Assembly (NCBI RefSeq): GCF_001447785.1
Contig: NW_015171620.1
Span: 1-64,000, forward strand
Source of the DNA: Gekko japonicus
Lineage: Eukaryota
Length of the DNA: 64,000 bases
Reading direction: 5' to 3'
In this document: positions 1-61,365 of the stretch, piece by piece
Position numbering within the stretch: the first letter of the stretch is position 1
Layout: each line of letters begins with the position of its first letter
Notes under the pieces: generated by a model
The model's input: the letters and a program-made list of their open reading frames with translations, nothing else
What the model was told of the DNA's origin: nothing
Databases searched by the model: none
Made by a program: the position numbers and the translations under genes

Positions 1-166
1 GTTCCCTTTTCCCATAAGTAATTAGTAAAATGTACTTTTTTAAAACTAATACACAGGTGTGCTGCGTTTTTCTTTATCTCTGCTACACTGTATACAGACA
101 AGGGGACACAATCTCAAGGGCCCCCAAAGATTTATCATAAGCATCCAGATGTTGACGCTCATCCAT
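1..166 (+). pseudogene. Orphan OR promoter copy whose gene body has been deleted
   Basis: Matches about 1771-1937, then joins directly to sequence matching the OR1 3' flank (4678 onward). Confidence 0.7.
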
Positions 167-1589
167 CTCAGAAAGTTATTTCATCTCAGAAAGTTATTTC
201 CAACCTTGCTGGAAATGGGATTTCAAAGAGCATGAAATTCTGGGCTAGTTTGGCACGAAGAATCAAAGTTGTGGATTCTATGCACTCTTTGTGAAACTGT
301 GTTTATTTTAATATGATGTCTCTGTTCTTCTGGGTTTTTTTTTTTTTACTGATCTGCTGGGTGCTCCAAGTGTTTTGAAAAACAAGCTAAATGTATTTTA
401 AACGTTTAAAAGGATATGTTTTCCTCTTTGGATAGTGGCACAAGTACATTGCCCCTGAATCTGGATTCTTAAAATCTAAGCCACTGAAAAGTTCAGGACA
501 ATCATGACCATCTTGCCACCTCACACACCTTCAAAGAAATTCAGCTCTCACTTTGTATGTGTGTAGAATTACCTTCAGGCTGGTGACCCCATGCAGTTTT
601 CAAAGGGAAGGGACGTTCAGAGGTGGTTCTCCATTGCCTGCCTCTGCATAGCAACCCTGGACTTCCTTAGTGGTCTCCCATCCATATACTAACTGGGCTG
701 ACTCTGCTTAACTTCCCAGATCTGATGAGGTTGGGCTAGGCTGGGCCATCCAGACCAGGGCACCACTGGACTCCCCCAGAACCATGAAGGACTTCCTTGG
801 TGGTCCCTCATCCAAATACTAACCAGGGCCAGTCCTGCTTAGCTCCCCAGATCTGACAAGGTCTGGGTAGCCTGGACAATCCAGGTCATGGCAAGAACGA
901 CACAAGGTTTAAAAAAGAGATGAAAAGGGAATGGTCTCCACCCAGGCTCCATTGCATCAGATAGTGCATAATAAATGAAATGAAATAATGCTCTGCCTTC
1001 TTGGTGCTTGGGGGGGTCAACAGTGGGAGGGCTTCTAGTGTCCTGGCTCCACTGGTGGACCTCCTGATGGCACCTGGTTTTTGGCCACTGTGTGACACAG
1101 AGTGTTGGACTGGATGGGCCTTTGGCCTGATCCAACATTGGCGTCTCTTATGTTCTTATGTTCTTAACTTACCTATTTTTAATATGTGGAGGGGGTTTTA
1201 TGTCTGTGTGGGGGGAACCATCAACTTCATCATTTTTATTTATTTATTCCTTTTGGAAAAAATGATGCTGCCTCTCCAGGAACCTGCCCAAGGAGCCTTA
1301 CAAAATAAAAGTAATAAAAACAAAATATGAAACAATATTCATTAAAATCCAGCATTGGCGGGGGAGGACCCAAAATGGCACATGAAGATTGACCATTAAT
1401 CACGTCTTCTACCCCTCAAAACGTACATGGAATTTACAACCACACGGTTGAAAAGTGGGTGCCCCTGCCTTGAAAGGAATCAGTGGTGTGTCCCCGGAGG
1501 AGGAGGAGGAGGAGGAGGAGGAGGAGGAGGAGACAGTGCCTAATAGAAAAGTCTGCACGTCTTTGGCACCAGAGTGTAGATGACAATAT

Positions 1590-2107
1590 GCATAATGAGT
1601 TTGCCTATTGGCTAATCAATAGATTTCAGGATGTCTCAGGGGTGGAAACTCACTTCTACTGCCTTTGTTCTAATTTCTTCCCTGGGGCACGGACACGGGG
1701 TTTAGCGTTTACAGGGGAAAGATGCGGGTTAGAAAGAGCTAGAAAGGGTGTTTGTTGTTTTGAACTCCCAGTTCCCTTTTCCCATAAGTAATAAGTAAAA
1801 TTTACTTTTTTAAAGCTAATACACTCGTGTGCTGCGTTTTTCTTTTGCTCTGCTACACTGTATACCCAACAGAGGGACACAATCTCAAGGGCCCCCAAAG
1901 ATTTATCATAAGCATCCAGATGCGGACGCTCATCCATGCCCCCTCTTTCTTTCTAGCAAGCCTGTCGCATGGAGCACCAACGTCATGGCTGGGCTCCTCA
2001 GTAAAAGTACAGGAAGGGGCAAAAGACTTCCTTCCCTCCCAGTTCTGAAAGAAGCTTTCTGATGACTTTTCTACTGGATGGAGCATTGTTTCCAAAGCTA
2101 TTGAGGT
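1590..2107 (+). promoter_or_regulatory. Putative OR1 promoter plus non-coding first exon and donor
   Basis: TAATGA at 1593, O/E-like TCCCTGGGGC at 1679 and TCTCAAGGG at 1883, ATTTAT at 1901, donor GAG|GTACAG at 2105/2106; block conserved upstream of paralogues. Confidence 0.55.
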
Positions 2108-2714
2108 ACAGTAATGGGAACAATTGCAGACAGCAAAGGAAACAGAAGTGGGACCTTGCTTGGCTGACAGAGTCCAGGGGGGGGAAGCATTTGTGCTTCT
2201 TGAAGGAAATTACAATGATTTATTATAAAACTGTGGCTAGAAAAGAAAGATTTTGACTAATGAAACTGAGGGGTCATGAGGTAGTCCAGGATTCTCAGCT
2301 GCATCCATAATTTTTACTTACTTCTTCAGGAAAAGTGCTTTCCTCTGCAAATTCCAGTTTCATTCAAAGACACCCTGCCATCTTTAAGTATGGACACTGT
2401 CATATCATTTTCTATCCTACGGGAAAATGAAGTCTCTCTGGAAAATGTGTGGCGGTCCCTGCCTGCCCCCAAGGAGGGTCTCTCATTAGATGCCCTCAAA
2501 AACTGAAAGGCCAGAGATGCCCCTCACAGAACCCTTCCTGATCACTCACATGTATTGGGGGGGGGGGGTTTAAAATGTCTTTTGGCCAATAGATTGGATT
2601 CCCCTGTCTCCCTTGCTTTCCCCTCCAATACCAGTTTCAGAGCATCCCAGACTGTCTAAACTAGTATTTAGACAACTACAGTCTGTTTTATGCAATGCTA
2701 TCATCTAATTCCAG

Positions 2715-3719
2715 ATGGAGTTCACCAATGGGACAGTTCAGGAATTCATTTTGCTGGGCTTTGAGGTTGGGCAGCTGCAACGACTCCTGCTCCTCGTCTT
2801 TTTCACTCTTCTTTACATGCTCACCATGGCTGAGAACATCACCATCATCACACTGGTGGTTCTAGACACCCACTTGTTCCAGCTTCCTATGTACATCCTG
2901 CTGAGCAACTTCTCCTGGCTGGAGATCTGTTATGTGAACACCACTGTGCCCCGGATGCTCTTAGACCTGGCATTATCCAACAAGAGCATCTCCTTCAGCT
3001 CCTGCTTCCTCCAGTTTTACATCTTCTGCTCTCTTGGCAGTACGGAATGCTTCTTCCTCTCTTCTATGGCCTTGGATCGCTACTTGGCCATCTGCCACCC
3101 ACTGCGATATCCACAGATTATGTCCCCAAACTTTTGCTATATCCTAGTCACTGTTTGTTGGGCTCTTGGCTTCCTGGCATACATTGTCCCAGTGACACTG
3201 ATCTCCAAGATGTCTTACTGTGGCCCCAACGTCATTGACCATTTTTTGTGTGATGCTGGGCCAATTCTGGCTTTGGCGTGCCCTCCACTACTAAAAGCAC
3301 CCACCAGTAGTCTGATTTTCATGGATATTGTGGTGATCCTAGGCAACATCGTGTTTGCTGTGCTGTCCTACGGCTCTGTGATTGTCACCTTGATGAAAAA
3401 CTCTAGCAAAGGCAATCGGGCCAAGTCCTTCTCCACCATATCATTCCACTTGTTGGTGGTCACACTTTACTATGGCCCTGCAGCAGGGATTTATATAAAG
3501 CCAAGAGAAGCTGACTCCAGTGTCACTAAGATAGTAACACTCTGCTATACTGCCATAACACCCTTTCTCAACCCCCTGATTTACTGTCTGAGGAATGATC
3601 AGGTGAAGGAGGCACTGTTCAGGCTATGGAGAAGAAAGGCAGTGTTTTTGAAAAGTAAAACTGACAGTGTGAAAAAGAGGAAAAGAACAGGAAATATATC
3701 ACAAAACCTGCAACATTAG
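2715..3719 (+). CDS. Olfactory receptor, family 11 (OR11G/H-like), intact, 334 aa (OR1)
   Basis: Intronless 7TM ORF with N-glycosylation site NGT, PMYILLSNFS, CFLQFY, MALDRYLAICHPLRY, DHFLCD, SY, KSFST..FHL and PFLNPLIYCLRN; these motif variants match OR11G/H. Confidence 0.95.
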   Translation: MEFTNGTVQEFILLGFEVGQLQRLLLLVFFTLLYMLTMAENITIITLVVLDTHLFQLPMYILLSNFSWLEICYVNTTVPRMLLDLALSNKSISFSSCFLQFYIFCSLGSTECFFLSSMALDRYLAICHPLRYPQIMSPNFCYILVTVCWALGFLAYIVPVTLISKMSYCGPNVIDHFLCDAGPILALACPPLLKAPTSSLIFMDIVVILGNIVFAVLSYGSVIVTLMKNSSKGNRAKSFSTISFHLLVVTLYYGPAAGIYIKPREADSSVTKIVTLCYTAITPFLNPLIYCLRNDQVKEALFRLWRRKAVFLKSKTDSVKKRKRTGNISQNLQH

Positions 3720-4869: not shown

Positions 4870-5128
4870 ATAATGAAACTGAAGCTCAAATACTTTGGCC
4901 ACCCAATGAGAAGGGAGCACTCACTGGAGAAGACCCTGATGCTGGGAATGATTGAAGGTCAAAGGAGACGGGGACGGCAAAGGATGAGATGGTTAGACAG
5001 TGTCATAGATGCAACGAACATGAAATTGAGTGAACTTCAGAGGACAGCAGAAGACAGGAGGGCCTAGCGTGACCTGGTCCATGGGGTTGCGAAGAGTCAG
5101 ACTCGACTGTGCGACTGAACAACAAAAA
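4870..5128 (+). mobile_element. BovB/RTE LINE 3' fragment
   Basis: KLKLKYFGH.MRR..SLEKTLMLG.IEG.RRRGRQRMRWLD and a (CAA)n-like tail; inserted into a 5S-derived SINE and absent from the paralogous copy near 675. Confidence 0.9.
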
Positions 5129-7689
5129 TCCATATACTAACCAGGGCTGACTCTGCTTAACTTCCCAGATCTGATGAGGTTGGGCTAGCCTGGGCCATCC
5201 AGACCAGGGCACCGCTGGACTCCCCCAGAACCACGAAGGACTTCCTTGGTGGTCCCTCCTCCAAATACTAACCAGGGCCAGTCCTGCTTAGCTCCCCAGA
5301 TCTGACGAGGTCTGTGTAGCCTGGACAATCCAGGTCATGGCAAGAACGACACAAGGTTTAAAAAAGAGATGAAAAGGGAATGGTCTCCACCCAGGCTCCA
5401 TTGCATCAGATATTGCATAATAAATAAAATGAAATAGCATATCTATATTAATATGTGTGTGGGGGGGTTATGTCTGCATTGGAGAAACCATCAACTTCAC
5501 CATTTATTCCTTTCGGAAAAAATGATGCTGCCTCTCCAGGAACCTGCCCAAGGAGCCTTACGAAATAAAAGTAACAAAAACAAAATATGAAACAATATTC
5601 ATTAAAATCCAGCATTGGCGGGAAAGGAACCAACATGGCACAGGAAGATTGACCATTAATCCAATTTAGAGTTACCATATTTTGAAAAGCTAGAAAGAGG
5701 ACATACTTCCCAAATGACTACTTTGAACAAGTGATCACTGTTACAAATCTCATTTTAAATACCCTTTAAGCTGTGATAATTGCTACTAACTAGGAATATT
5801 CCTAACCTTCCAACCCAAAAGGGGGACATTTTCATTGGTTTTTCAAAAAGAGTCCAAAAGAGGACAGACACCCCCAAAAAAAGAGGACATGTCCTCTAAA
5901 AAGTGCACAGACACACACACACACACAAAAGAGGCCACCTAGTACCAATAAGGATACACAGTTTTGATACAAGCACATCAAATTGTAATTTAGTTTTTTA
6001 GCCCCCCCCCAAAAGAGGACATGTCCTCTAAAAAGCGCACAGACACACATATACAAAAAAAGAGGCCACCTAGTTCCAATGAGGATACACAGTTTTGATA
6101 CAAGCACATCAAATTGTAATTTAGTTTTTTAGGTTCCCTTTTATGTCAAATCTCATGTGTGAGACTTCAAAATGGGTAGAGCTGGTTTTGCTCACGAGCA
6201 CTCAGGTTTTAATTGGATCAGATCTCCTATGGGGAGGCCTGCCATGGCTTAATAGAGTTTCGGTCTCCATAATATGTAAATTCCCACAGAAATAAATCCC
6301 GTGAAGGAGAAGGAGAAGGATGATCAGGGTTATACGCATCATGAGAAAATGGGGTTCATACGAGAGGGTGTAGACTTTCCAATTTCCCGGGGGGGGGGAG
6401 GCTGGGGCTGGGCCAGAGGCATTGCTTTGCTAGGAACAAGGGTGGCTCCCGGGGGAGGCTGAGCACCTTCCTGAAAAATTTGGCGGGGGCTGAAGCCCCG
6501 CTGCCCCCACGAAGATAGAAGGAAGTCTGATTTTATTCAGTCCAACTTAACTCCCAAGTGTCCCTAGGATGGCAGTTTACAGCACATAGCATAGGTCATG
6601 GTGTCCAGTCTTTACCACTGAAGATTCGGCCATGGAGACTGAAAAGACGGAAGGCTGGAGAATCTTCTAACATAGGATTTGATCCAGGAATCAATTTAAA
6701 AATTTGTCCAAAATATTTATAAAGATCTAGTGTCCGATTTCCTCTCTATACCTTGGTGAAATACCATCAGGGTTTGACTGAACTGATACCAGCAACTGGA
6801 AAGGGGCAGATCTCTTAAGATGGTGTCCTGCACGTGGACCGTAAACAGATGATGTACATTGAAACAGAAATGAAAGGCAGAGTCTACCTCCCACGTGGCC
6901 ATAGCCAGTGCCAAATGGCAGGAAAGTCGGTCGTCTGCTGGGGCACAAAGACATCCACTGGGCCCACTCGTAGAAGCAGAGGAGAATGGGAGGGAGGGCT
7001 CTGCATCCCGCCTCCTTCCCCCCCCTCGCAGTTTGGTGCAGGAGATGCAGGAGTAGCTAGCGACTCTCCTCTCTGGCACCATGAAGGCCCCAGTTGCTCC
7101 TGTGCTCCAGGGCTGCATGTTTTTTCATGGGGACTGTTGCTTCTGAGAGCCCAACTAAACCTGAGGGCAAACTTGTGGCCACCATGACTTTGCCCTCACC
7201 GTTTCACAGTGAATTTAAAATGCCACAAGGCCCCGAGGTGCCAATGGCTCGTTGTGTGGAACTCTTGAAGAGTTCTGTGCCACAAGCCGACACCAGATCG
7301 ATCGGGGCCTTGTGGACTTTGTTATTGTGGGGGGGGGGGTTGCATGGCACAATAGGGCTGAACACGTCTTCTACCCCTCAAAACGTACATGGAATTTACA
7401 ACCACACGGTTGAAAAGTGGGTGCCCCTGCCTTGAAAGGAATCAGCGGTGTGTCCCCCTAGGAGGAGGAGGAGACAGTGGCCACCCATTGGTGATCTCTG
7501 ACTATCATCATTGGGTCAGAAAAGAGGTCAGCTCTGGGTTCGTGTCTCTAGCCGCTTGGCATCCTGTTGGGATATAGGAGCAAGTTGCTTTCCTGATGTC
7601 ATGAAAGAATTTACATGTTCACTTGTGCTACTTTCTAGTTAGTTTGCTCAGGGCCAATAGAAAGTACCAGAGCGTAGATGACAATATGC

Positions 7690-8214
7690 ATAATGAGTTA
7701 ATATAGGGATTGCCTATTGGCTAATCAATAGATTTCAGGATGTCTCAGGGGTAGAGACTCAGGAAACTTCTACTGCCTTTGTTCTAATCTCTTCCCTGGG
7801 GCACAGACACGGGGTTTAGCGTTTACAGGGGGGAAAGATGCGGGTTAGAAAGAGCTAGACAGGGTGTTTGTTGCTTTGAACTCCCAGTTCCCTTTTCCCA
7901 TACGTAATTAGTAAAATTTACTTTTTAAGGGTAATACACTTGTGTGCTGCGTTTTTCCTTTCCTCTGCTACACTGTATACCCAACAGAGGGACACAATCT
8001 CAAGGGCCCCCAAAGATTTATCATAAGCATCCAGATGTTGACACTCATCCATGCTCTTTCTAGCAAGCCTGTCGCATGGAGCACCAAGACTATGGCTGGG
8101 CTCCTCAGTAAAAGTACAGGAAGGTGCAAAAGACTTCCTTCCCTCCCAGTTCTGAAAGACACTTTCTGATGACTTTTCTACTGGATGGAGCATTGTTTCC
8201 AAAGCTATTGAGGT
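7690..8214 (+). promoter_or_regulatory. Putative OR2 promoter plus first exon
   Basis: TCTCAAGGG at 7998, ATTTAT at 8016, donor at 8212/8213. Confidence 0.55.
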
Positions 8215-9911: not shown

Positions 9912-10898
9912 ATGGAGTTCACCAACGGGACAGTTCAGGAATTCATTTTGCTGGGCTTTGAGGTTGGGCAGCTGCAACGACTCCTGCTCCTCGTCTTTTT
10001 CACTCTTCTTTACATGCTCGCCATGGCTGAGAACATCACCATCATCACACTGGTGGTTCTAGACATTCACTTGTCCCGGCTTCCCATGTACATCCTGCTG
10101 AGAAACTTCTCCTGGCTGGAGATCTGTTATGTGAACACCACTATGCCCCGGATGCTCTTAGACCTGGCATTGTCCAACAAGATCATCTCCTTCGGCTCCT
10201 GCTTCCTCCAGTTTTACGTCTTCTGCTCTCTCGGCAGCACTGAATGCTTCTTCCTCTCTTCCATGGCCTTGGATCGCTACTTGGCCATCTGCCACCCACT
10301 GCGATATCCACAGATCATGTCCCCAAACTTTTGCTATGTCCTCGTCACTGCTTCTTGGGTCCTCGGCTTCCTGGCATCCATTGTCCCAGTGACACTGATC
10401 TCCATGATGTCTTACTGTGGCCCCAACGTCATTGACCATTTTTTGTGTGATCCTGGGCCAATTATGGCTTTGGCTTGCCCTCCACTACCAAAAGCACCCA
10501 TCATTAGTCTGATTTTTATTAATGTTCTGGTGATCCTAGGCAACATCGTGTTTACTGTGCTGTCCTACGGCTCTGTGATCATCACCTTGATGAAAAACTC
10601 TAGCAAAGGCAATCGAGGCAAGTCCTTCTCCACCATATCTTTCCACTTGTTGGTGGTCACACTTTTCTATGGTCCTTTAGCAGGGATTTATATAAAGCCA
10701 AGAGAAGCTGACTCCAATGTCACTAAGATAGTCACACTCTGCTATACTGCCATAACACCCTTTCTCAACCCCCTGATTTACTGTCTGAGGAACGATCAGG
10801 TGAAGGAGGCACTGTTCAGGCTATGGAGAAGAAAGGCAGTGTTTTTGAAAAGTAAAATTGACAGTGCGAAAAAGAGGAAAGGAACAGGAAATATATAA
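9912..10898 (+). CDS. Olfactory receptor, family 11-like, intact, 328 aa (OR2)
   Basis: Close paralogue of OR1 with the same OR motifs. Confidence 0.95.
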   Translation: MEFTNGTVQEFILLGFEVGQLQRLLLLVFFTLLYMLAMAENITIITLVVLDIHLSRLPMYILLRNFSWLEICYVNTTMPRMLLDLALSNKIISFGSCFLQFYVFCSLGSTECFFLSSMALDRYLAICHPLRYPQIMSPNFCYVLVTASWVLGFLASIVPVTLISMMSYCGPNVIDHFLCDPGPIMALACPPLPKAPIISLIFINVLVILGNIVFTVLSYGSVIITLMKNSSKGNRGKSFSTISFHLLVVTLFYGPLAGIYIKPREADSNVTKIVTLCYTAITPFLNPLIYCLRNDQVKEALFRLWRRKAVFLKSKIDSAKKRKGTGNI

Positions 10899-12875: not shown

Positions 12876-13704
12876 CTAGCAGCTCTCCTCTCTGGCACCA
12901 GGAAGGCTCCAGCTGCACCTGTGCTCCAGGGCTGCACTTTTTTTGATGGGGAGTGTTGCTTCCGGGAGCCCAACTTAACCTGAGGGCAAACTTGTCACCA
13001 CCATGACTTTGCCCTCACCCTTTTACAGTGAATTTAAAATGCCACATGGCCCTGATATGCCAATAGCTCATAGTGTGGAGCTCTTGAAGAGTTCGGTGCC
13101 GCAAGACCACACCAGATAGAGGCCTTGTGGGTTTTGTTATTGTTTTTTGGGGGGTGCATGACCGAATATATCTGTACATCTTCTACCCCTCAAAACGTAC
13201 ATGGAATTTACAACCACACAGTTGAAAAGTGTGCGCTACTGTCTTGAAAGGAATCAGTGGTGTGTCCCCCTTGGGAGGAGGAGAAGACAGTGCCCTGTCT
13301 CTGATCATCATCTCTGGGTGAGGGAAAAGGTCAGCTCAAGGTTTGTTTCTAGAGCTTCTTGGGACCCTGATGAGATATATAAGCAAGTTCCTTTCCTGAT
13401 GTGCTGGAAGAATTTACATGTTTACTTGTTCAAGCTCATTTTCTAGTTAGTTTGTTTAGAGCCAATAGAAAAGCCTGCACATATCTGGCACCAGAGTGTA
13501 GATGACAATATGCACAATGAGTTAGTATTGGGATTAAAGGTAAAGGTTCCCTTGCTCGAAAGCCAGTCGAATCCGACTCTAGGGTTGCGGTGCTCATCTC
13601 CGTTTCAAAGCCGAAGACTTGTGCATGCTACTTTCTAGTTAGTTTGCTTAGGGCTAATAGAAAAGTCTGCAAATCTTTTGGCGCCAGAGTGTAGATGACA
13701 ATAT

Positions 13705-14240
13705 GCATAATGAGTTAGTATTGGGATTGCTTATTGGCTAATCAATAGATTTGAGGATATCTCAGAGGTGGAGACTCAGGAAACGTCTACTGCCTTTGTT
13801 CTAATCTCTTCCCTGGGGCACGGACACGGGGTTTAGCATTTACAGGGGGAAAAGATGCGGGTTAGAAAGAGCTAGACAGGGTGTTTGTTGTTTTGAACTC
13901 CCAGTTCCCTTTTCCCATGAGCAATTAGTAAAAATTACTTTTTTAAAGCTAATACACACGTGTGCTGCGTTTTTCTTTTCCTCTGCTACACTGTATACCC
14001 AACAGAGGGACACAATCTCAAGGGCCCCCAAAGATTTATCATAAGCATCCAGATGTTGACGCTCATCCATGCCCCCTCTTTCTTTCTAGCAAGCCTGTCG
14101 CATGGAGCACCAAGACTATGGCTGGGCTCCTCAGTAAAAGTACAGGAAGGTGCAAAAGGCTTCCTTCCCTCCCAGTTCTGAAAGACACTTTCTGATGACT
14201 TTTCTACTCGACGGAGCATTGTTTCCAAAGCTATTGAGGT
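13705..14240 (+). promoter_or_regulatory. Putative OR3 promoter plus first exon
   Basis: TCTCAAGGG at 14016, ATTTAT at 14034, donor at 14238/14239. Confidence 0.55.
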
Positions 14241-16309: not shown

Positions 16310-17296
16310 ATGGAGTTCACTAATGGGACAGTTCAGGAATTCATTTTGCTGGGCTTCGAAGTTGGGCAGCTGCAACGACTCCTGCTCCTCGTCTTTTTCA
16401 CTCTTCTTTACATGCTCGCCATGGCTGAGAACATCACCATCATCACACTGGTGGTTCTAGACACCCACCTGGCCCGCCTTCCCATGTACATCCTGCTGAG
16501 CAACTTCTCCTGGCTGGAGATCTGTTATGTGAACACCACTATGCCACGGATGCTCTTAGACCTGGCATTGTCCAACAAGATCATTTCATTCAGCTCCTGC
16601 TTCCTCCAGTTTTACATCTTCTGCTCTCTTGGCAGCACTGAATGCTTCTTCCTCTCTTCTATGGCCTTGGATCGCTACTTGGCCATCTGCCACCCACTGC
16701 GATATCCACAGATCATGTCCCCAAACTTTTGCTATGTCCTAGTCACTGTTTGTTGGGTCCTTGGGTTCCTGGCATACATTGTCCCAGTGACACTGATCTC
16801 CATGATGTCTTACTGTGGCCCCAGCGTCATTGACCATTTTTTGTGTGATCCTGGGCCAATTCTGGCTTTGGCTTGCCCTCCAATACCAAAAGCACCCATC
16901 ATTAGTCAGATTTTCATGGATGTGGTGGTGATCCTAGGCAACATCGTATTTGCTGTGCTGTCCTACGGCTCTGTGATTGTCACCTTGATGAAAAACTCTA
17001 GCAAAGGCAATCGGGCCAAGTCCTTCTCCACCATATCATTCCACTTGTTGGTGGTCACACTTTTCTATGGTCCTTTAGCCGGGATGTATGTAAAGCCAGG
17101 AGAGGCTGACTCCAATGTCACTAAGATAGTCACACTCTGCTACACTGCCATAACACCCTTTCTCAACCCCCTGATTTACTGTCTGAGGAATGATCAGGTG
17201 AAGGAGGCACTGTTCAGGCTATGGAGAAGAAAGGCAGGGTTTTTGAAAAGTAAAATTGAGAGTGCAAAAAAGAGGAAAGGAACAGGAAATAAATAA
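16310..17296 (+). CDS. Olfactory receptor, family 11-like, intact, 328 aa (OR3)
   Basis: Close paralogue of OR1/OR2 with the same OR motifs. Confidence 0.95.
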   Translation: MEFTNGTVQEFILLGFEVGQLQRLLLLVFFTLLYMLAMAENITIITLVVLDTHLARLPMYILLSNFSWLEICYVNTTMPRMLLDLALSNKIISFSSCFLQFYIFCSLGSTECFFLSSMALDRYLAICHPLRYPQIMSPNFCYVLVTVCWVLGFLAYIVPVTLISMMSYCGPSVIDHFLCDPGPILALACPPIPKAPIISQIFMDVVVILGNIVFAVLSYGSVIVTLMKNSSKGNRAKSFSTISFHLLVVTLFYGPLAGMYVKPGEADSNVTKIVTLCYTAITPFLNPLIYCLRNDQVKEALFRLWRRKAGFLKSKIESAKKRKGTGNK

Positions 17297-20309: not shown

Positions 20310-20536
20310 ACTGTTCTTGAGGGACAGGATCCCAAAGGGCCATCAAAGATTTATCAGAAGCTTTCACACTTCAGTGCTCACCTGTGGCCACTCTCTCCGC
20401 ACAGACAGCCTTTCATGTGCATCACCAGCACCATGGCTGGGCTCAGGAAGGCATACTAGACACCCACCCAAGGTCTGACAGTACAGTTCTGACAACTGGT
20501 CTACTAGATGGAGTGACACTTTCAAAGTATTGAGGT
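20310..20536 (+). promoter_or_regulatory. Putative OR4 promoter plus first exon
   Basis: TCTTGAGGGA at 20315, TCCCAAAGGG at 20330, ATTTAT at 20349, donor GAG|GTATAG at 20534/20535. Confidence 0.5.
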
Positions 20537-23481: not shown

Positions 23482-24444
23482 ATGGAGTTGGCCAACAGGA
23501 CCACAGTTCAGGAATTCATTTTGCTGGGCTTTGAGGTTGGGCAGCCGCAACGACTCCTGCTCCTTGGCTTTTTCACTCTTCTTTACATGATCACCATGGC
23601 TGAGAACATCACCATCATCACACTGGTGGTTCTGGACACCCACCTGTCCCGGCTTCCCATGTACATCCTGCTGAGCAACTTCTCCTGGCTGGAGATCTGT
23701 TACGTGAGCACCACTGTGCCTCGGATGCTCTTTGACCTGGCCTCGTCCCACAAGACCATCTCCTTCAGTTCCTGCTTCCTCCAGTTTTACATCTTCTTCT
23801 CTCTTGGCAGCACTGAATGCTTCTTCCTCTCAGCCATGGCCTTGGATCGGTACTTGGCCATCTGCCACCCACTGCGATACCCACAGATCATGTCCCCAAA
23901 CTTTTGCTATGCCCTGGTAACTCTTTGTTGGGTCCTTGGCTTCATGACATACATTGTCCCAGTGACACTGATCTCCAAGATGTCCTTCTGTGGCCCTAAT
24001 CTCATTGACCATTTTTTGTGTGATCCTGGACCAATTCTAGCTTTGGCTTGCCCTCCCCTTGCAACTGCTCCTCTCATCAGTCAGATTTTCATGGACGTGT
24101 TGGTGATCCTAGGCAATATCGTGTTCGTTGTGCTATCCTACGGCTCTGTGATTGTCACCCTGGTGAAAAACTCTCGCAAAGGCAACCGGTTAAAATCCTT
24201 CTCCACCATATCGTTTCACTTAATGGTGGTGACTCTTTTCTATGGCCCAGTGGCAGGGCTCTATGTCATGCCAAGTGGAGAAATCAATTCAAGTGTCATT
24301 AAGATAGTAACACTCTGCTATACTGCCATAACACCCTTCCTTAACCCCATGATTTACTGCCTAAGGAATGATCAGGTGAAGGAAGCACTGTGCAGGCTGT
24401 GGAGGAGAAAGGCAATATTTTTTAAGAGAAAGGTGGCAGTGTGA
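23482..24444 (+). CDS. Olfactory receptor, family 11-like, intact, 320 aa (OR4)
   Basis: NRT sequon, PMYILL, MALDRY, DHFLCDPGP, NPMIYCLRN. Confidence 0.95.
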   Translation: MELANRTTVQEFILLGFEVGQPQRLLLLGFFTLLYMITMAENITIITLVVLDTHLSRLPMYILLSNFSWLEICYVSTTVPRMLFDLASSHKTISFSSCFLQFYIFFSLGSTECFFLSAMALDRYLAICHPLRYPQIMSPNFCYALVTLCWVLGFMTYIVPVTLISKMSFCGPNLIDHFLCDPGPILALACPPLATAPLISQIFMDVLVILGNIVFVVLSYGSVIVTLVKNSRKGNRLKSFSTISFHLMVVTLFYGPVAGLYVMPSGEINSSVIKIVTLCYTAITPFLNPMIYCLRNDQVKEALCRLWRRKAIFFKRKVAV

Positions 24445-25235: not shown

Positions 25236-27051
25236 ATTTCTTGGATTTCTCAGGTAGGCAGCCCTCAAATCAGTCTAAGGTTATGGAAGGTCACGGTGGA
25301 GCTTGTGGTTTTCCTGGCGGAGACCATATCAAAGATGTTCTCTTTGTCAAATGGAACACAAGGCCACAAAATTTCAACATTATGTAGATCTCCTTGTAGT
25401 ACACATTAGGTGATACAGAAAGTGAAATGAATTATCTGTTCTTTTTATGGCAGTCACAAGAAGAAGAAGAAGAGATTGGATTTATACCCCACCCTTAACT
25501 ACCCAAAGGAGTCTCAGAGCAGCTTACAAACTCCTTTCCCTTCCCCTCCCCACAACAGACACCCTGTGAGGTGGGTGGCCACGGCCATGCAAGGGAAAAC
25601 CATAGAGTTTTCCCTTGTATGGTCATGGCCCCGCCCCCAGCGTGCCCTGCGTCATGACATCACTTCCCTGTGATGCGCATGCCGGGGCGGGGTTCCCCCC
25701 GGGGCCCGATTCCCTGGCGTCGAGAGACGGGCCTCTGGGGCGGGGGGTTTTCCGCCCCCGGGGGGATTTGGCAGCCCTAGTCTGCGCACTTAACCACTAC
25801 ACCAAACTGTATGGTATTCATGTGTGCTCCCTGAAGTAGCCACCACAAGTTTGCCCACACCATTTTAGAGTGAGTTTAAAATGCCACAAGGTCCTAATGT
25901 GCCAATGGCTCGTTGTGTGGAGCTCTTGAAGAGTTCTGTGCCACAAGCCCACAACCTTGTGGATTTTGTCATTGTTGGGGGGTAGTTGCATGGCCCAATA
26001 TGGCTGTACAACATCTTCTACCCTTCAAAACATACATGGAATTTACAAACACATGGTTGAAAAGTGGGTGCCACTCTCTTGAAAGAAATCAGTGGTGTGT
26101 CCCCTTGGGAGGAAGAGGAGAAGACAGTGGCCCAACCATTGGTGATCTCTGACTATCATCATTGGGCTAGAAAAGAGGTCAGATCGGGGTTTTTTTCTAG
26201 AACTGCCTGGGACCCAAAGGCAGTTTGGTGTAGTAGTTAGGAGCACGGACTCTAATCTGGGAGAGCCGGGCTTGATTCCCCACTCCTCCACATGCAGCTG
26301 CTGGTGTGACCTTGGGTCAGTTACAAGTTCTTTCAGAGCTGTTCTCTCACGAGCAGTTCTCGAAAGAGTTCTCTCAGCCCCACCGACCTCACAGGGTGTC
26401 TATTGTGGGGAGAGGGAGGGAAGGAGATTGTAAGCCACTCTGAGACTCCCTCAGGTAGTGAAGGGTGAGGTATAAATCCAATCTCTTCTTCTTCTTCAGA
26501 AATAGTAGCGGTTGAGGATTCTAGCATAAGTCCCCAAGAACAGGCAGCAAATCAGAGTAAAAGGCTCTACCCAATCTCTTCCCCCTGTCATACTAGTTTT
26601 CTGCATGCATGGATTTTTATTGTTCTGGAGCAGTGCCCCTTTCCACAAGAAGACCATCAATGGAACAGGGTGACTGGTAACCATGTTTCTGGAGAAGAGT
26701 CTTCCTTTGCTATTATTCCAGAGCCCAGCTCCATAGCCATACTACATTACATTTGAATTCAGATACTGCACATCAAAAATAATGTAATAATAAATAAATA
26801 CATAGCTTAGGAAATCAACAACTACCTGTGGAAATTACCTGGGAGCAGCCTATCTCCAGAAAGAGAGCTTGTTGGGGGTGGGGGGTGATTATATTGTCCT
26901 CGAGGGACAAAGCCACCAGCTATGACAGTTGGGTTGGCACACGGATGCGCTCTTCCTTCCTATCAAGCCTATCCAATACCCCACAACTGTACCCCCCAAG
27001 AGACAGAAGAAGAAGAGGAGGAGGAGGAGGAGGAGGAGGAGGAGACGATAG

Positions 27052-27180
27052 NNNNNNNNNNNNNNNNNNNNNNNNNNNNNNNNNNNNNNNNNNNNNNNNN
27101 NNNNNNNNNNNNNNNNNNNNNNNNNNNNNNNNNNNNNNNNNNNNNNNNNNNNNNNNNNNNNNNNNNNNNNNNNNNNNNNN
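27052..27180. other. Assembly gap (others at 49595-49728, 58325-58579, 60132-60282, 60542-60564)
   Basis: N runs, each adjacent to a young SINE copy. Confidence 1.
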
Positions 27181-28219
27181 AGGAGGAGGAGGTGGAGGAG
27201 GAGGAGATTGGATTTATACCCCACCCATCACTACCCAAAGGTGTCTCAGAGTGGCTTACAAACTCCTTTCCCTTCCCCTCCCCACAACAGACACCCTGTG
27301 AGGTAGGTGGGGCTGAGAGCTCTGACAGGAACTGTTCTTTTTCAAGAACAGCTCTTATCAGAACTACCTCTTGCCCAAGGCCAGCCAGCCAGGTGCAAGT
27401 GGAGGAGTGGGGAATCAAACCCGGTTATCCCAGATTAGAATCCGCACACTTAACCACTTCACCAAACTGGTGTAGCACTCGTGAACCATATCCTGACACA
27501 GGAAATAGCACTCGTGACCCATATCCTGACACAGTGCTTACAGGCAATGCTCCCTCTAAGCTATGGAGTCTTGTGAGCAAAAATTCTACTTTGTGAGCTA
27601 CTAGCATTAGAGTTGTGAGCGAGTGATTTGGCTGCTGCATAAATTAATTTGCTCTGGAGCCATCCTTCCTGAGCTAAGACAAAGATCTGTGAGCTGGAGG
27701 CTAAAAAAGTGTGAGCTAGCTCACACTAACTCAGCTTAGAGGGAACACTGCTTACAGGGTACCTTATTACGGACAGAGCATCACTCTGAATGCTATTGAG
27801 GTACAGAAAAGAGAACCATCTCAAAAGCATTTATGGGGAAAGGGAGTCCAGGGGTCTCTACAACAGGGAAGGGAAGGAAATACGGCTCCTGTAGGCTGCC
27901 ATAAACCCATATTTATTTCACTTCACCAAATCCCAGGGAACGGATGCATCCTCCCAGAACTAGTTTCCTCTCACTTTGAGAACCACGGGGTTAGATCCAA
28001 TTAGCCCCTCGCTTGCAGCACTGCCTAAGAAGACAACTGCATGTGGAAGACCACCTAGAAAAATCTCTTTGGTCTACAAAATCTACAAAAGAGGAATACC
28101 AATCCCAGTGTGGGTGCTGCCCTAAGGCAACCTCTCCTTTCGCCGCTGGGTGTGCAGCTACGGTAGCAACATCCGATGTAGGAGAGAAATCCTGTCACGC
28201 TGCCACCTTCCCTAAAACC

Positions 28220-31809: not shown

Positions 31810-32054
31810 TTGTCCTTGAGGGGCACAGTCTCAAGGGCCCCCCAAAGATTTATCAGAAGCATTCAGACGCCCACGCTCATGCATGCCCTCTCTTTCGTCC
31901 TAGCAAGCCTGCCGCATGGACAGCTACATCACAGCTGGGCTCCGCGGTAAAACTACAGGGAGGTGCAATAGACTTTTCCCCCCTCCCAATTCTGACAGAA
32001 GATTTCTGATGACTTTTCTCCTGGATGGCGCATCGCTTTCAAAGCTATTGAGGT
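31810..32054 (+). promoter_or_regulatory. Putative OR5 promoter plus first exon
   Basis: TCCTTGAGGGG at 31813, TCTCAAGGG at 31829, ATTTAT at 31848, donor at 32052/32053. Confidence 0.55.
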
Positions 32055-35664: not shown

Positions 35665-36624
35665 ATGGAGTTCACCAACGGGACGGTTCATGAATTCATT
35701 TTGCTGGGCTTTCAGGTTGGGCAGCTGCAACGACTCCTGCTCCTCGTCTTTTTCACTCTTCTTTACATGCTCGCCATGGCTGAGAACATCACCATCATCA
35801 CACTGGTGGTTCTAGACACCCACTTGTCCCGGCTTCCCATGTACATCCTGCTGAGCAACTTCTCCTGGCTGGAGATCTGTTACGTGAGCACCACTATGCC
35901 CCGGATGCTCTTAGACCTGGCATTGTCCAACAAGATCATCTCCTTCAGCTCCTGCTTCCTCCAGTTTTACATCTTCTTCTCTCTCGGCAGCACTGAATGC
36001 TTCTTCCTCTCTTCTATGGCCTTGGATCGGTACTTGGCCATCTGCCACCCACTGCGATATCCACAGATCATGTCCCCAAGTTTCTGCTATGTCCTCGTCA
36101 CTGCTTCTTGGGCTCTTGGCTTCCTGGCATACATTGTCCCAGTGACACTGATCTCCATGATGTCTTTCTGTGGCCCCAACGTCATTGACCATTTTTTGTG
36201 TGATCCTGGGCCGATTCTGGCTTTGGCGTGCCCTCCACTACCAAATGCTCCCCTCAGTAGTCTGGTTTTTATGGATGTTGTGGTGATCCTAGGCAACATC
36301 TTGTTTGCTGTGCTGTCCTACATCTCTGTGATTGTCACCTTGATGAAAAACTCTAGCAAAGGCAATCGGGCCAAGTCCTTCTCCACCATATCATTCCACT
36401 TGTTGGTGGTCACACTTTACTATGGCCCTGCAGCAGGGATTTATATAAAGCCAGGAGGAGAAACTGATCCAAATGTCACTAAGATAGTCACACTTTTCTA
36501 TACTGCCATAACACCCTTTCTAAACCCCATGATTTACTGTCTGAGGAATGATCAGGTGAAGGAGGCACTGTGCAGGCTATGGAGAAGAAAGGCTGTGCTT
36601 TTGAAAAGAAAAGTCACAGTGTGA
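35665..36624 (+). CDS. Olfactory receptor, family 11-like, intact, 319 aa (OR5)
   Basis: Same OR motifs; OR1-3-type paralogue with the shorter C-terminus KRKVTV. Confidence 0.95.
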   Translation: MEFTNGTVHEFILLGFQVGQLQRLLLLVFFTLLYMLAMAENITIITLVVLDTHLSRLPMYILLSNFSWLEICYVSTTMPRMLLDLALSNKIISFSSCFLQFYIFFSLGSTECFFLSSMALDRYLAICHPLRYPQIMSPSFCYVLVTASWALGFLAYIVPVTLISMMSFCGPNVIDHFLCDPGPILALACPPLPNAPLSSLVFMDVVVILGNILFAVLSYISVIVTLMKNSSKGNRAKSFSTISFHLLVVTLYYGPAAGIYIKPGGETDPNVTKIVTLFYTAITPFLNPMIYCLRNDQVKEALCRLWRRKAVLLKRKVTV

Positions 36625-36689
36625 AAAAGAGGAAAGGAACAGGAAATGTATCACAAAACATGCAATAGTAGTGTCCACAATAAAGCTTT

Positions 36690-40294: not shown

Positions 40295-40470
40295 TACTCG
40301 TGGCAATTGCCTGCATATCATAACAACAGGGAGCCGAGCTGTCTTCTAGCGATATTACTCTTGAGGGGCCATTTCCCACGGGTCACCGATAATTTATTAG
40401 TAGCATTTCGGTTTCTCCTCTCATTTCCCTCCAAGCCATGACCAAAGCTGCAGCTGAACACCACTGTCAG
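40295..40470 (+). promoter_or_regulatory. Putative OR6 promoter
   Basis: CTCTTGAGGGG at 40358, TTCCCACGGG at 40373 and ATTTAT at 40392, in the same spacing as paralogues; homologous donor not found. Confidence 0.45.
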
Positions 40471-41143
40471 ACCACAGTCTCTGCCAACAGTCTGGAGAGA
40501 GACTGAAAGAGAAGGTTCATGTTATGCATCTGCTATTCTTCACTGGTTTTCGTGATTTTAACTTAATTATCAGTGAATCCAAACACTCTGGGGCTGCTGC
40601 TTTCTTCCAGTCCGACCTGTTTTATGGGGTTCCGTGCGCCTTGCTGTTTAGTCATGCCGGCCACATGACCACGGAAGCGTCTTCGGACAGCGCTGGCTCT
40701 TCGGCTTGGAAACGGAGATGAGCACCGCAACCCTAGAGTCGGATTCGACTGGCTTTTGAGCAAGGGAGACCTTTACCTTTTTAATACTGGCTTGCTGTGA
40801 CCTGGATGGCCCAGGCTAGCCCGATCTCATCAGATCTCAGAAGCTAAGCAGGGTTGGCCTTGGTTAGTACTTGGATTGGAGACCACCAAGGAAGTCCAGG
40901 GTCACTATGAAGAGGCAGGCAATGACGTTTGGTTTTTTGTTTGTTTTTCTGTACTCGGGGTAATCTGTATTGCACCCGAAACATTCTAAAAAGGCATTCC
41001 CTGCGATTCGATTAGGACTTCCATTTTATCATGACATAGGTGAGTGTCATTACATAAGAGATTGTGTGTGCGTGGCTTTCTAAATGGAACTTGCATATTC
41101 AAGCTTAGCCTCACTGGCATTATTTTGGCCTTCCTTCAGCCCA

Positions 41144-42027: not shown

Positions 42028-42990
42028 ATGGAGGTAGTCAATGGGACTAGAATTCGGGAATTCGTTTTGCTGGGATTTGAACTCGGGCAGCGGAAGTGTT
42101 TCCTACTCCTCATCTTCTTCAGCATTCTCTATGTGTTGACACTGGCTGAGAACATCACCATCATCACACTGGTGGTTCTAGACACCCACTTGTCCCGGCT
42201 TCCCATGTACATCCTGCTGAGCAACTTCTCCTGGCTGGAGATCTGTTATGTGAGCACCACTATGCCCCGGATGCTCTTTGACCTGGCCTCATCCCACAAG
42301 ACCATCTCCTTCAGTTCCTGCTTCCTCCAATTTTACATCTTCTTCTCTCTGGGCACAACAGAATGCTTCTTCCTCTCATCCATGGCCTTGGACCGGTACT
42401 TGGCCATCTGTCACCCACTGCGCTATCCACAAATTATGTCTCCAAATTCTTGTTATGTTTTGGTAACGTCTTGTTGGCTCCTTGGATTCCTGGTGTATGT
42501 CATCCCAGTGACTTTGATTTCCAGTATGACTTTCTGTGGTCCCAATGTTATCGACCATTTTTTGTGTGATCCTGGGCCAATTCTGTCATTGGCTTGCCCT
42601 CCACTAGCAAATGCTCCTATTATCCTTCAGACCGCCATGAATGTTGTCGTTTGTCTAGGCAATATGTTCTTTGTTGTGCTCTCCTACGGGGCCGTGATTC
42701 TAACCCTGATGAAAACCTCTCGCCAAGGCAACCGGACAAAGTCCTTCTCCACCATATCTTTCCACTTAGTGGTGGTGGCGCTTTTCTATGGCCCCGTGGC
42801 AGGGTCTTATGTAGTCCCGGTTGGAGAAGGCGAGATGAAGGTCATTAAGGTCATAACACTCTTCTACACTGCCGTGACACCCTTTCTCAACCCCATTATC
42901 TATTGTCTGAGAAATGATCAGGTGAAGGAGGCACTAGGCAGGTTGTGGAAGAGAAAGACAATATTTCTGATGAGGAGAGTGACTGTGTAG
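42028..42990 (+). CDS. Olfactory receptor, family 11-like, intact, 320 aa (OR6)
   Basis: Same OR motifs, more divergent N-terminus. Confidence 0.95.
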   Translation: MEVVNGTRIREFVLLGFELGQRKCFLLLIFFSILYVLTLAENITIITLVVLDTHLSRLPMYILLSNFSWLEICYVSTTMPRMLFDLASSHKTISFSSCFLQFYIFFSLGTTECFFLSSMALDRYLAICHPLRYPQIMSPNSCYVLVTSCWLLGFLVYVIPVTLISSMTFCGPNVIDHFLCDPGPILSLACPPLANAPIILQTAMNVVVCLGNMFFVVLSYGAVILTLMKTSRQGNRTKSFSTISFHLVVVALFYGPVAGSYVVPVGEGEMKVIKVITLFYTAVTPFLNPIIYCLRNDQVKEALGRLWKRKTIFLMRRVTV

Positions 42991-46234: not shown

Positions 46235-46552
46235 TTACCTGTGGAAACTGCCTGTTTCTCTATTCCCTGGAAGAGCTAAGCTGCCTCCAAAGAGGCAATA
46301 TTGTGGCTTCTATTGATGTTGCTCTACAGGGACCCTTTCCCAAGGGGCACCAAATATTTATCAGCAGCATTCCACTTTGCCCTTCCCACATAGCCACTCC
46401 GTCTTCCCGCTATCTGACCACATGACCAACGCTACAGTTGGGCATCATCGTCCAACACCAGGAAAAACGACGTATGTCTTCACAAGATTTCACCCCTGAC
46501 CTTATGATGAAGCTTTTGCTGGATGGAGCAGCATTTTAAACACTACTAAGGT
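46235..46552 (+). promoter_or_regulatory. Putative OR7 promoter plus first exon
   Basis: CTCTACAGGGA at 46322, TTCCCAAGGGG at 46337, ATTTAT at 46356, donor AAG|GTACAG at 46550/46551. Confidence 0.5.
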
Positions 46553-50701: not shown

Positions 50702-51640
50702 ATGGATCCAGCCAACAGGACTGGAGTGGAGGAATTCGTTTTGCTGGGATTTGAAGTCGGGCAGCAGAAACGGCTCCTGCTTCTCACCTTCTTCGCCATT
50801 CTCTACGTGCTCACTCTGGCCGAGAACATCACCATCATCGTACTGGTGGTTCTGGACACCCACCTGGCCCGCCTTCCCATGTACATCCTGCTGAGCAACT
50901 TCTCCTGGCTGGAGATGTGCTACGTGAGCGCCACAGTCCCCCGGATGCTCTTTGACCTTACGTCCCCTCAAGGGGCCATCTCCTTCCATAACTGCTTCAT
51001 TCAGTTCTACATCTTCTTTGCTCTCGGCAGCACCGAATGCTTCTACCTTTCGGCCATGGCCTTGGATCGGTACCTGGCCATCTGCCACCCGCTGCGCTAC
51101 CCGCAAATCATGTCCCCAAACTCCTGCTACGGTCTGGTGGGTTCTTGTTGGGCCGTCGGCTTCCTGTGGTACCTCGTCCCGGCCGTTTTGATCTCCAGGC
51201 TGTCCTTCTGCAGGTCCAACGTCATCGACCACTTTCTGTGTGATGCCGGGCCCATTCTGTCCCTGGCCTGCCCTCCGCTAGGAGCCGCGCCCGTCATCAG
51301 CCAGTTTTGCCTGAACGCTCTGATCATCGGCAATATGTTCTTTGTCGTGCTCTCCTACAGCATCATGGTGAACACTCTAATGAAAGCGTCCAGCCAAGGC
51401 AGTCGGATGAAGGCCTTCTCGACCATATCGTTCCACTTACTGGTGGTGACTCTTTTCTATGGCTCAGTGGCAGGGATGTACTTGATTCCGGGTGGGGAAA
51501 ACCAGTCAGCCATAACTAAGGCCGTGACACTCTTCTACACCGCCGTGACACCCTTCCTCAACCCCATGATCTACTGCCTGAGAAACAATCAGGTGAAAGA
51601 AGCCCTGGTCAGGCTCCTGAAGAGAAAGGAGACAGTGTAA
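50702..51640 (+). CDS. Olfactory receptor, family 11-like, intact, 312 aa (OR7, most divergent)
   Basis: PMYILL, MALDRY, DHFLCD, KAFSTISFHL, LFYGS, NPMIYCLRN. Confidence 0.95.
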   Translation: MDPANRTGVEEFVLLGFEVGQQKRLLLLTFFAILYVLTLAENITIIVLVVLDTHLARLPMYILLSNFSWLEMCYVSATVPRMLFDLTSPQGAISFHNCFIQFYIFFALGSTECFYLSAMALDRYLAICHPLRYPQIMSPNSCYGLVGSCWAVGFLWYLVPAVLISRLSFCRSNVIDHFLCDAGPILSLACPPLGAAPVISQFCLNALIIGNMFFVVLSYSIMVNTLMKASSQGSRMKAFSTISFHLLVVTLFYGSVAGMYLIPGGENQSAITKAVTLFYTAVTPFLNPMIYCLRNNQVKEALVRLLKRKETV

Positions 51641-52281: not shown

Positions 52282-52295
52282 CCACTAGGTGGCGA
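52282..52295 (+). promoter_or_regulatory. CTCF core motif
   Basis: CCACTAGGTGGCGA matches the CCASYAGRKGGCR consensus. Confidence 0.6.
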
Positions 52296-57190: not shown

Positions 57191-57205
57191 ACACCAGGGG
57201 GCAGC
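57191..57205 (+). promoter_or_regulatory. CTCF core motif
   Basis: ACACCAGGGGGCAGC. Confidence 0.55.
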
Positions 57206-58948: not shown

Positions 58949-58954
58949 TTTATT
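58949..58954 (-). terminator. TTC5: Probable TTC5 polyadenylation signal (3' UTR about 58930-59843)
   Basis: AATAAA on the - strand followed by a GU-rich tract (tatttgttcattgcccttcgtggggtgtctttt). Confidence 0.6.
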
Positions 58955-61351: not shown

Positions 61352-61365
61352 CCACTAGGTGGCGA
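61352..61365 (+). promoter_or_regulatory. CTCF core motif (in the last TTC5 intron)
   Basis: CCACTAGGTGGCGA, in a context homologous to that at 52282. Confidence 0.6.

What the first reader, a model, noticed from the sequence alone, without database searches (positions are those of the whole stretch)
1880..2714. Shared two-exon architecture: a conserved promoter/exon-1 module spliced to an acceptor AG directly abutting each OR ATG
Seen: all seven OR start codons are immediately preceded by YAG (ttccag|ATG in six, tttttag|ATG in OR6), usually with a CTAAT-like branch point upstream. Each gene also has, 0.8-4.4 kb upstream, a homologous block with a TCYCNNGGG-like site (usually two in tandem) and an ATTTAT box 18-19 nt after the start of that site (1901, 8016, 14034, 20349, 31848, 40392, 46356). 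In six genes an AG|GTAYAG follows about 190-200 nt later. The block persists between OR1 and OR7 although their other flanks show no similarity I can see. Known: OR promoters use O/E (EBF) and homeodomain (Lhx2, TAATGA) sites and have 5' non-coding exons. Inference: this is the promoter and exon 1. Splicing would change the -3 Kozak base from a pyrimidine to G or A (gagATGG, aagATGG), which fits the model.
Basis: partly seen in the sequence, partly recalled or inferred. Interest (0 to 1): 0.7.

Follow-up and report, generated by a model that had tools for sequence, protein, structure and literature searches.

The report
Lizard odorant-receptor promoter and first exon
Seven neighbouring smell-receptor genes of a gecko each carry a copy of the same upstream block, likely their promoter and short non-coding first exon, which is predicted to be spliced straight onto the start codon; this is the usual layout of such genes, and the exact splice position appears to be shared across lizards and snakes.

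Summary
Real, and mostly ordinary. The window is a tandem cluster of seven intact OR11G2/11H6-like genes of a gecko. YAG|ATG holds in 7 of 7 and in 13 of 18 further paralogs; the five exceptions form one clade. Only 3 of 40 distant ORs have it. The upstream block is not a dispersed repeat: a profile finds it again, on the gene strand, upstream of 7 of 8 paralogs on another contig. One RNA-type contig matches the OR1 block exactly and stops precisely at donor 2105, but its remaining 93 nt do not lie on the OR1 start, so the 2105>2715 junction was not seen. Snake gene models diverge exactly at this Met, supporting a junction there. Corrections: the shared CTAAT is too close to be a branch point; the tandem O/E pair is cut in OR1-3 by an LTR-like repeat; no TAATGA site is present; two orphan blocks were missed; the seven copies are not independent. 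Promoter with O/E sites plus a non-coding first exon is the known mammalian OR architecture. The clade-wide junction at the ATG and the LTR-capped promoters are modest additions.

The parts
1540..1871 (+). 3' part of a dispersed LTR-like repeat (ends ...TATACCCAACA) abutting the OR1 promoter; replaces the left half of the upstream O/E-like site
   Evidence: 129 candidates, 40 scored, 74-80% identical elsewhere in G000; boundaries; TGTTGGG...CCCAACA ends, 5-nt flanking duplication perfect in 1 and near-perfect in 2 of 5 unlinked copies viewed
1872..1906 (+). OR1 predicted proximal promoter: half O/E-like site (GAGGGA), O/E-like site 1883-1892, AT-rich box ATTTAT 1901-1906
   Evidence: function inferred
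1930..2105 (+). OR1 predicted non-coding exon 1 (5' end a guess); five uATGs, none in frame; donor GAG|GTACAG after 2105
   Evidence: contig X5 record 3 matches 2023-2105 with 0 differences and stops at 2105; the 83 nt are unique to this copy among fetched DNA
2106..2714 (+). OR1 predicted intron, 609 nt, ending atctaattccag directly before ATG
   Evidence: junction itself not observed
2715..3719 (+). OR1 coding sequence, 334 aa, OR11G2/11H6-like
7565..7986 (+). LTR-like repeat, both ends present, before OR2 block; flanks CATCC / GAGGG are not a duplication
7987..8212 (+). OR2 promoter/exon-1 block (site 7998, ATTTAT 8016, donor after 8212)
9912..10898 (+). OR2 coding sequence, preceded by ttccag
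13654..14004 (+). LTR-like repeat part before OR3 block
14005..14238 (+). OR3 promoter/exon-1 block (site 14016, ATTTAT 14034, donor after 14238)
16310..17296 (+). OR3 coding sequence, preceded by ttccag
20315..20534 (+). OR4 block: O/E-like sites 20315 and 20330, ATTTAT 20349, donor after 20534
23482..24444 (+). OR4 coding sequence, preceded by ttccag
26897..27805 (+). Orphan block: one O/E-like site at 26897, exon-1 3' end and donor GAG|GTACAG after 27800, split by repeat insertions; no coding sequence of its own
   Evidence: (E 7e-6)
31814..32052 (+). OR5 block (degenerate site 31814, site 31829, ATTTAT 31848, donor after 32052); closest LTR-free relative of the OR1-3 blocks
35665..36624 (+). 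OR5 coding sequence, preceded by ttccag
40359..40493 (+). OR6 block: promoter part and start of exon 1 only; homologous donor lost
   Evidence: profile positions 2-172 of 273
41037..41045 (+). Candidate replacement donor for OR6, TAG|GTGAGT
   Evidence: best consensus match between block and ATG; untested
42028..42990 (+). OR6 coding sequence, preceded by tttttag
46323..46550 (+). OR7 block: O/E-like sites 46323 and 46338, ATTTAT 46356, donor AAG|GTACAG after 46550
   Evidence: single copy in G000 by DNA search
50702..51640 (+). OR7 coding sequence, preceded by ttccag; 92% identical to a Heteronotia OR11G2-like protein
1..166 (+). Orphan truncated block: LTR-like end, O/E-like site 112, ATTTAT, then breaks off

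Best explanation
Each upstream block is likely the proximal promoter and short non-coding first exon of its olfactory receptor gene, copied with the gene at each tandem duplication, and is predicted to be spliced to an acceptor AG directly before the ATG. Shown: the block, donor and acceptor sequences, their one-per-gene placement and their conservation, and one contig that stops at donor 2105. Inferred: O/E (EBF) proteins bind the TCYC..GGG sites, the AT-rich box is TATA-like and transcription starts about 30 nt after it, a 0.6-4.2 kb intron is removed, and the last exon-1 bases (RAG) serve as both donor and Kozak context. The junction exactly at the ATG is an inherited trait of the squamate OR11G2/11H6-like clade, a special case of the general habit of OR acceptors to sit near the start codon.
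For: Out of sample: a profile built from 5 window blocks hits upstream and on the gene strand of 7 of 8 paralogs on contig C9610 (E 5e-16 to 0.038; 6 below 1e-3), and 5 of those 7 keep AG|GTA. Best hit in 234 kb upstream of 40 distant ORs: E 0.91, wrong strand. In 11 paralogs of 66-77% protein identity AG, Y(-3) and T(-6) are invariant, while only 5 of 36 four-fold columns are and positions -40..-13 are near background. B1/B7 identity peaks at the promoter (0.70) and around the donor (0.69/0.67) and falls to about 0.5 elsewhere. RNA-type contig X5 record 3 (176 nt) matches 2023-2105 with 0 differences and ends exactly at the donor. Genomic read-throughs of homologs end FQ|M or LQ|M in Anolis, Tiliqua, Candoia, Crotalus horridus, Thamnophis, while other models of the same snake gene end NPE|M, RKM|M, NIK|M, diverging exactly at the Met. 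Three C3484 genes that lost the AG (CAC/TAC|ATG) have another AG 18 nt upstream. Mammalian precedent: PMC7055050, PMC3247239, PMC4982115.
Against: No junction 2105>2715 or paralogous junction in 8 runs. The other 93 nt of the X5 contig lie nowhere in 1600-3900, so that molecule did not splice to OR1 (nor to OR2-5, whose starts are 89-99% alike). Contig X2 record 10 has the OR5-block difference count (8 mismatches, 1 gap) and covers the promoter itself, so either DNA is in these runs or starts lie further upstream. The block was not found for the 6 genes of one YAG|ATG subclade (some have short upstream DNA). The second O/E site and ATTTAT are degenerate in C9610 copies. OR6 is intact without the homologous donor. 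The polypyrimidine tract is modest (8-12 of 14) and no shared branch point is evident. Snake evidence rests on annotated protein models, not on reads I saw.
Confidence: 0.85

Rival explanations
1. The block is a real spliced exon but not simply 'promoter + exon 1 joined to the ATG': it is an internal or shared 5' exon, starts lie further upstream (for OR1-3 possibly in the LTR-like repeat), and its donor is often joined to other exons or skips the coding exon.
For: The only contig at donor 2105 continues into sequence that is not the OR1 start; acceptor-like sites lie at 4137 and 4190, just beyond the stretch laid; one contig covers the OR5 promoter; shared exons and coding-exon skipping are reported for mammalian ORs (PMC7055050; PMC4982115).
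Against: O/E-like sites sit at the 5' edge of each block as expected of a promoter; acceptor and donor are both conserved; tissue of the runs is unknown and depth is 2-3, so these may be ectopic transcripts.
Confidence: 0.15
2. The similarity is a passive leftover of tandem duplication or gene conversion, with no function.
For: All copies are paralogs; OR1, 2, 3, 5 share long flanks; two orphan blocks persist without genes; 2-mismatch O/E matches are common.
Against: Conservation is focal (AG, GT, GGG) in paralogs whose other flanks no longer align; YAG|ATG is kept across lizards and snakes; a contig ends on the donor.
Confidence: 0.04
3. The block is a dispersed repeat unrelated to OR genes.
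For: The 330 nt directly upstream of the OR1-3 blocks are a dispersed repeat.
Against: The block itself has 7 matches in G000, five on this contig, one on a contig carrying an OR end and one on a 909-nt contig; B7 finds only itself and B4 only itself and B5 (these searches give lower bounds).
Confidence: 0.01

Closest known systems
Mammalian class II OR gene architecture (Barnes et al. 2020, PMC7055050; Olender et al. 2016, PMC4982115; passages and one section read)
   Same: Short 5' non-coding exon(s), an intron, one long coding exon, uORFs in the leader, occasional shared exons and coding-exon skipping.
   Different: Here inferred in a lizard from paralog comparison; the acceptor abuts the ATG across a whole clade; not confirmed by olfactory RNA.
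O/E (EBF) + homeodomain + TATA OR promoter (Young et al. 2011, PMC3247239; Michaloski et al. 2011, PMC3247230; passages read)
   Same: One or more O/E-like sites within 200 bp of the presumed start (78% of 314 mouse promoters, mean 1.38 sites) and an AT-rich box downstream.
   Different: No canonical homeodomain site in the window's blocks (TAATTA/TAATTG beside the first site in 3 of 5 C9610 promoters); in OR1-3 an LTR-like repeat caps the promoter.
Split-CDS OR genes (PMC7055050: 13 human, 41 mouse)
   Same: An upstream exon joined in frame to the coding exon; predicted here for paralog a8251 (in-frame uATG, 9 aa) and seen in snake protein models (24 aa).
   Different: The six window genes with a donor have no open in-frame uATG, so their exon 1 is non-coding.
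Leader exon junctions near the start codon (Lim et al. 2018, PMC5961209; passages read)
   Same: A junction within 100 nt of the start codon, together with uAUGs.
   Different: That study is genome-wide and the word 'olfactory' does not occur in it.

Membership tests
Squamate OR11G2/11H6-like olfactory receptors | Intact single-exon ORF of about 310-330 aa with best hits to that group | tested here: met
   7 ORFs of 312-334 aa; top named hits are all OR11G2/11H6-like of lizards and snakes, PF13853; one clade at 100/100 against 5 distant ORs
Vertebrate OR gene with 5' non-coding exon | Conserved splice donor upstream and acceptor near the ATG | tested here: met
Vertebrate OR gene with 5' non-coding exon | Donor used in a transcript | tested here: inconclusive
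   one low-depth contig of a run only guessed to be RNA ends exactly at 2105
Vertebrate OR gene with 5' non-coding exon | Exon 1 joined to the coding exon in RNA | tested here: inconclusive
   no joint listed in 8 runs of unknown tissue and very low cover; indirect support from snake models
O/E-homeodomain OR promoter | O/E-like site within 200 bp upstream of exon 1 | tested here: met
   1-2 mismatches to the recalled consensus TCCCNNGGGA at a homologous position in all blocks scored; no PWM available
O/E-homeodomain OR promoter | Homeodomain (TAATGA/TAATTA-type) site | tested here: not met
   none beside the O/E sites in the 7 window blocks; present in 3 of 5 C9610 promoters
O/E-homeodomain OR promoter | Transcription start and EBF/Lhx2 binding at the block | not testable with these tools
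   needs CAGE/RACE, ATAC or CUT&RUN
Split-CDS OR | In-frame ATG in exon 1 without a stop before the junction | tested here: not met
   0 of 6 window genes; met by prediction in paralog a8251
Solo LTR | TG...CA ends with short inverted repeats, dispersed copies, short target-site duplication | tested here: inconclusive
   ends and dispersal met; duplication seen in unlinked copies but absent in the OR-linked copy; no internal element was sought

The most novel reading that the evidence does not exclude
The junction fixed exactly at the start codon works as a socket across the squamate OR11-like clade: whichever first exon is spliced in supplies the Kozak context and can add an in-frame N-terminal extension (9 aa in one gecko paralog, 24 aa in viper and sea-krait models), and in the youngest gecko copies (OR1-3) a solo LTR replaced the distal promoter and drives non-olfactory transcripts that leave exon 1 and skip the receptor coding exon.
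Probability: 0.15. Interest if true: 0.55.

Novelty: new member of a known kind. Interest (0 to 1): 0.3.

Why it matters
It gives concrete promoter, exon-1 and junction predictions for a reptile OR clade, for which my eight literature searches found no promoter study, and suggests that the O/E-plus-non-coding-exon layout is shared by lizards and mammals. It offers a natural comparison of sister promoters with (OR1-3) and without (OR5) an LTR-like cap. For annotation, it shows that in-frame N-terminal extensions ending FQ|M in squamate OR11-like models are likely intron read-through. It does not reveal a new mechanism.

Tried and rejected
No RNA holder was listed as on record; five contig sets guessed to be RNA held 6-14% of the words. 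Raw RNA runs X6-X8 gave no reads on exon 1, X7 none at all, X8 a few on the CDS, X6 only on the LTR-like repeat: no test. Lack of intron cover in X1-X5 (one repeat-like 36-nt piece) is not used as evidence. A search for short proteins spanning the junction found nothing. A conserved uORF: an 8-codon uORF ends 1 nt before the junction in OR1, 2, 5, 7 but is absent in OR3, OR4 and the C9610 copies; rejected as a conserved element. CTAAT at -7 as branch point: rejected on distance (recalled knowledge). Kozak gain as proof: -3 is G or A in 9 of 9 retained donors but they share ancestry. Consensus O/E matching alone: 4, 26 and 245 sites with 0, 1, 2 mismatches in the window. Literature: searches found no paper on an acceptor abutting OR start codons, on squamate OR promoters or on LTR-capped OR promoters; the library lacks most subscription papers, and Young 2003 and Plessy 2012 were not held, so absence from print is not established. 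No supplements were read; those of PMC7055050 hold gene models from which acceptor-to-ATG distances in mammals could be counted. Earlier findings: none.

Full report
Setting. The window is the first 64 kb of contig C11910 of G000 (2.49 Gb). It holds seven intact + strand ORFs of 312-334 aa whose named homologs are OR11G2-like and OR11H6-like receptors of geckos, other lizards and snakes; the best is a gecko protein at 92%. A protein search of G000 gave 25 matches at 63-100% identity on five contigs, then a drop to 45% or less (127 scored of 1059 candidates).

Acceptor. YAG precedes the ATG in 7 of 7 window genes and in 13 of 18 further paralogs with an alignable start (fragments without an N-terminus were left out). 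The five exceptions, all on C3484, form one clade (93/96): three read CAC or TAC|ATG and have another AG 18 nt upstream, two have ACG for ATG and an upstream Met. Among 11 paralogs under 80% protein identity, AG, the -3 pyrimidine and the -6 T are invariant; four-fold sites are 62% identical pairwise and 5 of 36 such columns are invariant; identity is 0.79 over -12..-1 and 0.47-0.50 further up. Control: of 40 distant ORs fetched from the list, 3 have YAG|ATG and 21 have an acceptor-like site within 30 nt of the ATG, against 6.9% at random upstream positions. An acceptor near the ATG is thus a general OR habit here and distance zero is the inherited state of this clade. The branch-point claim does not hold: the shared CTRAT has its A at -7; a CTAAT at -20 occurs only in OR2, 3 and 5.

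Other species. Only proteins were available. Of 175 homologs and cluster members fetched, those extended upstream fall in two groups. Extensions ending FQ|M or LQ|M (Anolis P0160, Tiliqua P0032, Candoia P0021, Crotalus horridus P0125, Thamnophis P0132, Ophiophagus P0136, unnamed P0039) are what read-through of ttYcag|ATG gives. Models of the same snake gene with other extensions (C. tigris X1 ..RKM|M and X2 ..NPE|M, C. adamanteus ..NPE|M, Laticauda ..NIK|M) diverge exactly at the Met, as alternative exons joined there would. These are annotations; I did not see their DNA or reads. Five lacertid models diverge from one another at about the position of the ancestral Met, which reads V or I in them.

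Upstream block. All seven ATTTAT positions and six donors are as stated. A DNA search with the OR1 block gave 7 matches in G000: five on this contig, one on C1989 (which carries an OR 3' end) and one on a 909-nt contig; the OR7 and OR4 blocks gave 1 and 2. A profile from B1 and B4-B7 found, out of sample, a hit upstream and on the gene strand for 7 of 8 C9610 genes, none for the six genes of one subclade, and nothing better than E 0.91 in 234 kb upstream of the 40 distant ORs. AG|GTA is kept in 5 of the 7 C9610 blocks and lost at that position in two, one of them a gene with a stop. Between OR1 and OR7 the block is the only non-repeat flank match and identity peaks at promoter and donor. The upstream O/E-like site is the better conserved in C9610 copies, three of five of which have TAATTA or TAATTG beside it; the second site and ATTTAT are best in the window. 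The O/E consensus used is recalled; matches with up to 2 mismatches are common (275 in the window), so identity as O/E sites rests on position and on mammalian precedent (PMC3247239, section read). ATTTAT as TATA-like is inference.

Window 1540-1871 is a dispersed repeat with 129 candidates in G000. Unlinked copies are about 440 nt, run TGTTGGG...CCCAACA and show a 5-nt flanking duplication, as solo LTRs do. In OR1-3, the 103-166 orphan, C1989 and C55449 its 3' end abuts GAGGG, where OR4-7 read YCTW(G/C)AGGG, so it has replaced the left half of the upstream site and the distal promoter. Its flanks in the OR-linked copy are not a duplication, and its left flank matches DNA upstream of the second orphan block (25836-26215), which suggests a deletion associated with the repeat (inference). 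The second orphan (26897-27805) keeps one site and the donor but is split by repeats. OR6 keeps the promoter part only; TAG|GTGAGT at 41039 is a candidate donor.

RNA. No holder on record as RNA was listed. Eight runs were laid on 1600-3900; no joint was listed. One contig of X5 (176 nt, depth 2.5, RNA status a guess) matches 2023-2105 with no difference, a stretch unique to the OR1 block among the fetched DNA, and stops exactly at the predicted donor. Its other 93 nt lie nowhere on the stretch; OR2-5 starts would have been laid, OR6 and OR7 starts (75%) would not. So the donor has support and the direct junction does not; acceptor-like sites at 4137 and 4190 are untested candidates. One X3 contig lies wholly in exon 1 and is closest to the C1989 copy; one X2 contig has the OR5-block difference count and overlaps the promoter, which warns of DNA in these runs or of upstream starts.

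Mechanism. Inferred model: O/E proteins at one or two sites, start about 30 nt after the AT-rich box, a 150-180 nt exon 1 with several uATGs and none open in frame, removal of a 609-4151 nt intron, and RAG|ATGG at the junction, so exon 1 supplies the Kozak -3 purine. That purine is present in 9 of 9 retained donors but these share ancestry. Because the junction is in phase 0, an in-frame uATG would extend the receptor; this is predicted for paralog a8251.

Comparison. Barnes et al. (PMC7055050; passages and section 6) describe one to six non-coding 5' exons, uORFs in 54-86% of genes, shared exons, coding-exon skipping and split-CDS genes; Olender et al. (PMC4982115; passages) the same in human with O/E sites 100-300 bp from the start; Young et al. 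(PMC3247239) O/E in 78% and TATA-like matches in 39% of mouse promoters, and they filtered out recent duplicates because these share promoter sequence. The finding works like, and meets the sequence tests for, that architecture; the homeodomain feature is not met in the window and the start and junction are untested. Eight searches found no squamate OR promoter study, but two key papers were not held.

Verdict. Observation largely real, interpretation supported at about 0.85, a new member of a known kind. Interest 0.3; the bolder reading (junction as a socket for first exons, LTR-driven skipping transcripts) has probability about 0.15 and would merit 0.55.

Noticed in passing
window 36679-38433: Directly after the OR5 stop region the sequence is an 83-86% copy of the OR4 intron (20604-21927), without promoter, exon 1 or coding sequence: a relic of a duplication and deletion.
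   Followed up: partly
window 26897-27805 and 1-166: Two orphan promoter/exon-1 blocks without their own coding sequence; the first keeps an intact donor and could be an alternative upstream exon for OR5.
   Followed up: partly
L064/L008 (G000:C1989 5056-5860) and L007 (C55449): Another LTR-capped block with donor and intron start but no downstream OR within the contig; the two contigs look near-identical there and may be redundant assembly.
   Followed up: partly
G000:C9610 about 68900-68640 and 49000-48730 (minus strand): Two blocks contain what looks like a degenerate OR 5' coding fragment just upstream of the exon-1 end, possibly recombination products.
   Followed up: no
G000:C9610 10827-11074 (gene a8251): Exon 1 has an in-frame ATG that would add 9 residues after splicing: a candidate split-CDS OR.
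   Followed up: partly
Proteins P0061, P0121, P0139: Viper and sea-krait models share a similar 24-aa N-terminal extension joined at the Met, a candidate conserved split-CDS OR in snakes; may reflect annotation projection.
   Followed up: no
G000:C3484 29290-51568: Clade of five genes with acceptor or start-codon turnover (CAC/TAC|ATG with an AG 18 nt upstream; ACG with an upstream Met).
   Followed up: partly
window 4137 and 4190: Strong acceptor-like sites in the OR1 3' flank; the 4137 AG is specific to OR1 among four copies. No AATAAA or ATTAAA in 3721-5200.
   Followed up: partly
window 5879-6132, 24855-25236, 48099-48482: Two-copy tandem duplications of 131, 192 and 191 nt, and many SINE-like dispersed repeats of 200-350 nt throughout the window.
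   Followed up: no
window 51641-64000 and contig 64001-114000: No further OR match was found downstream of OR7 in the fetched part of the contig; OR7 appears to end the cluster.
   Followed up: partly
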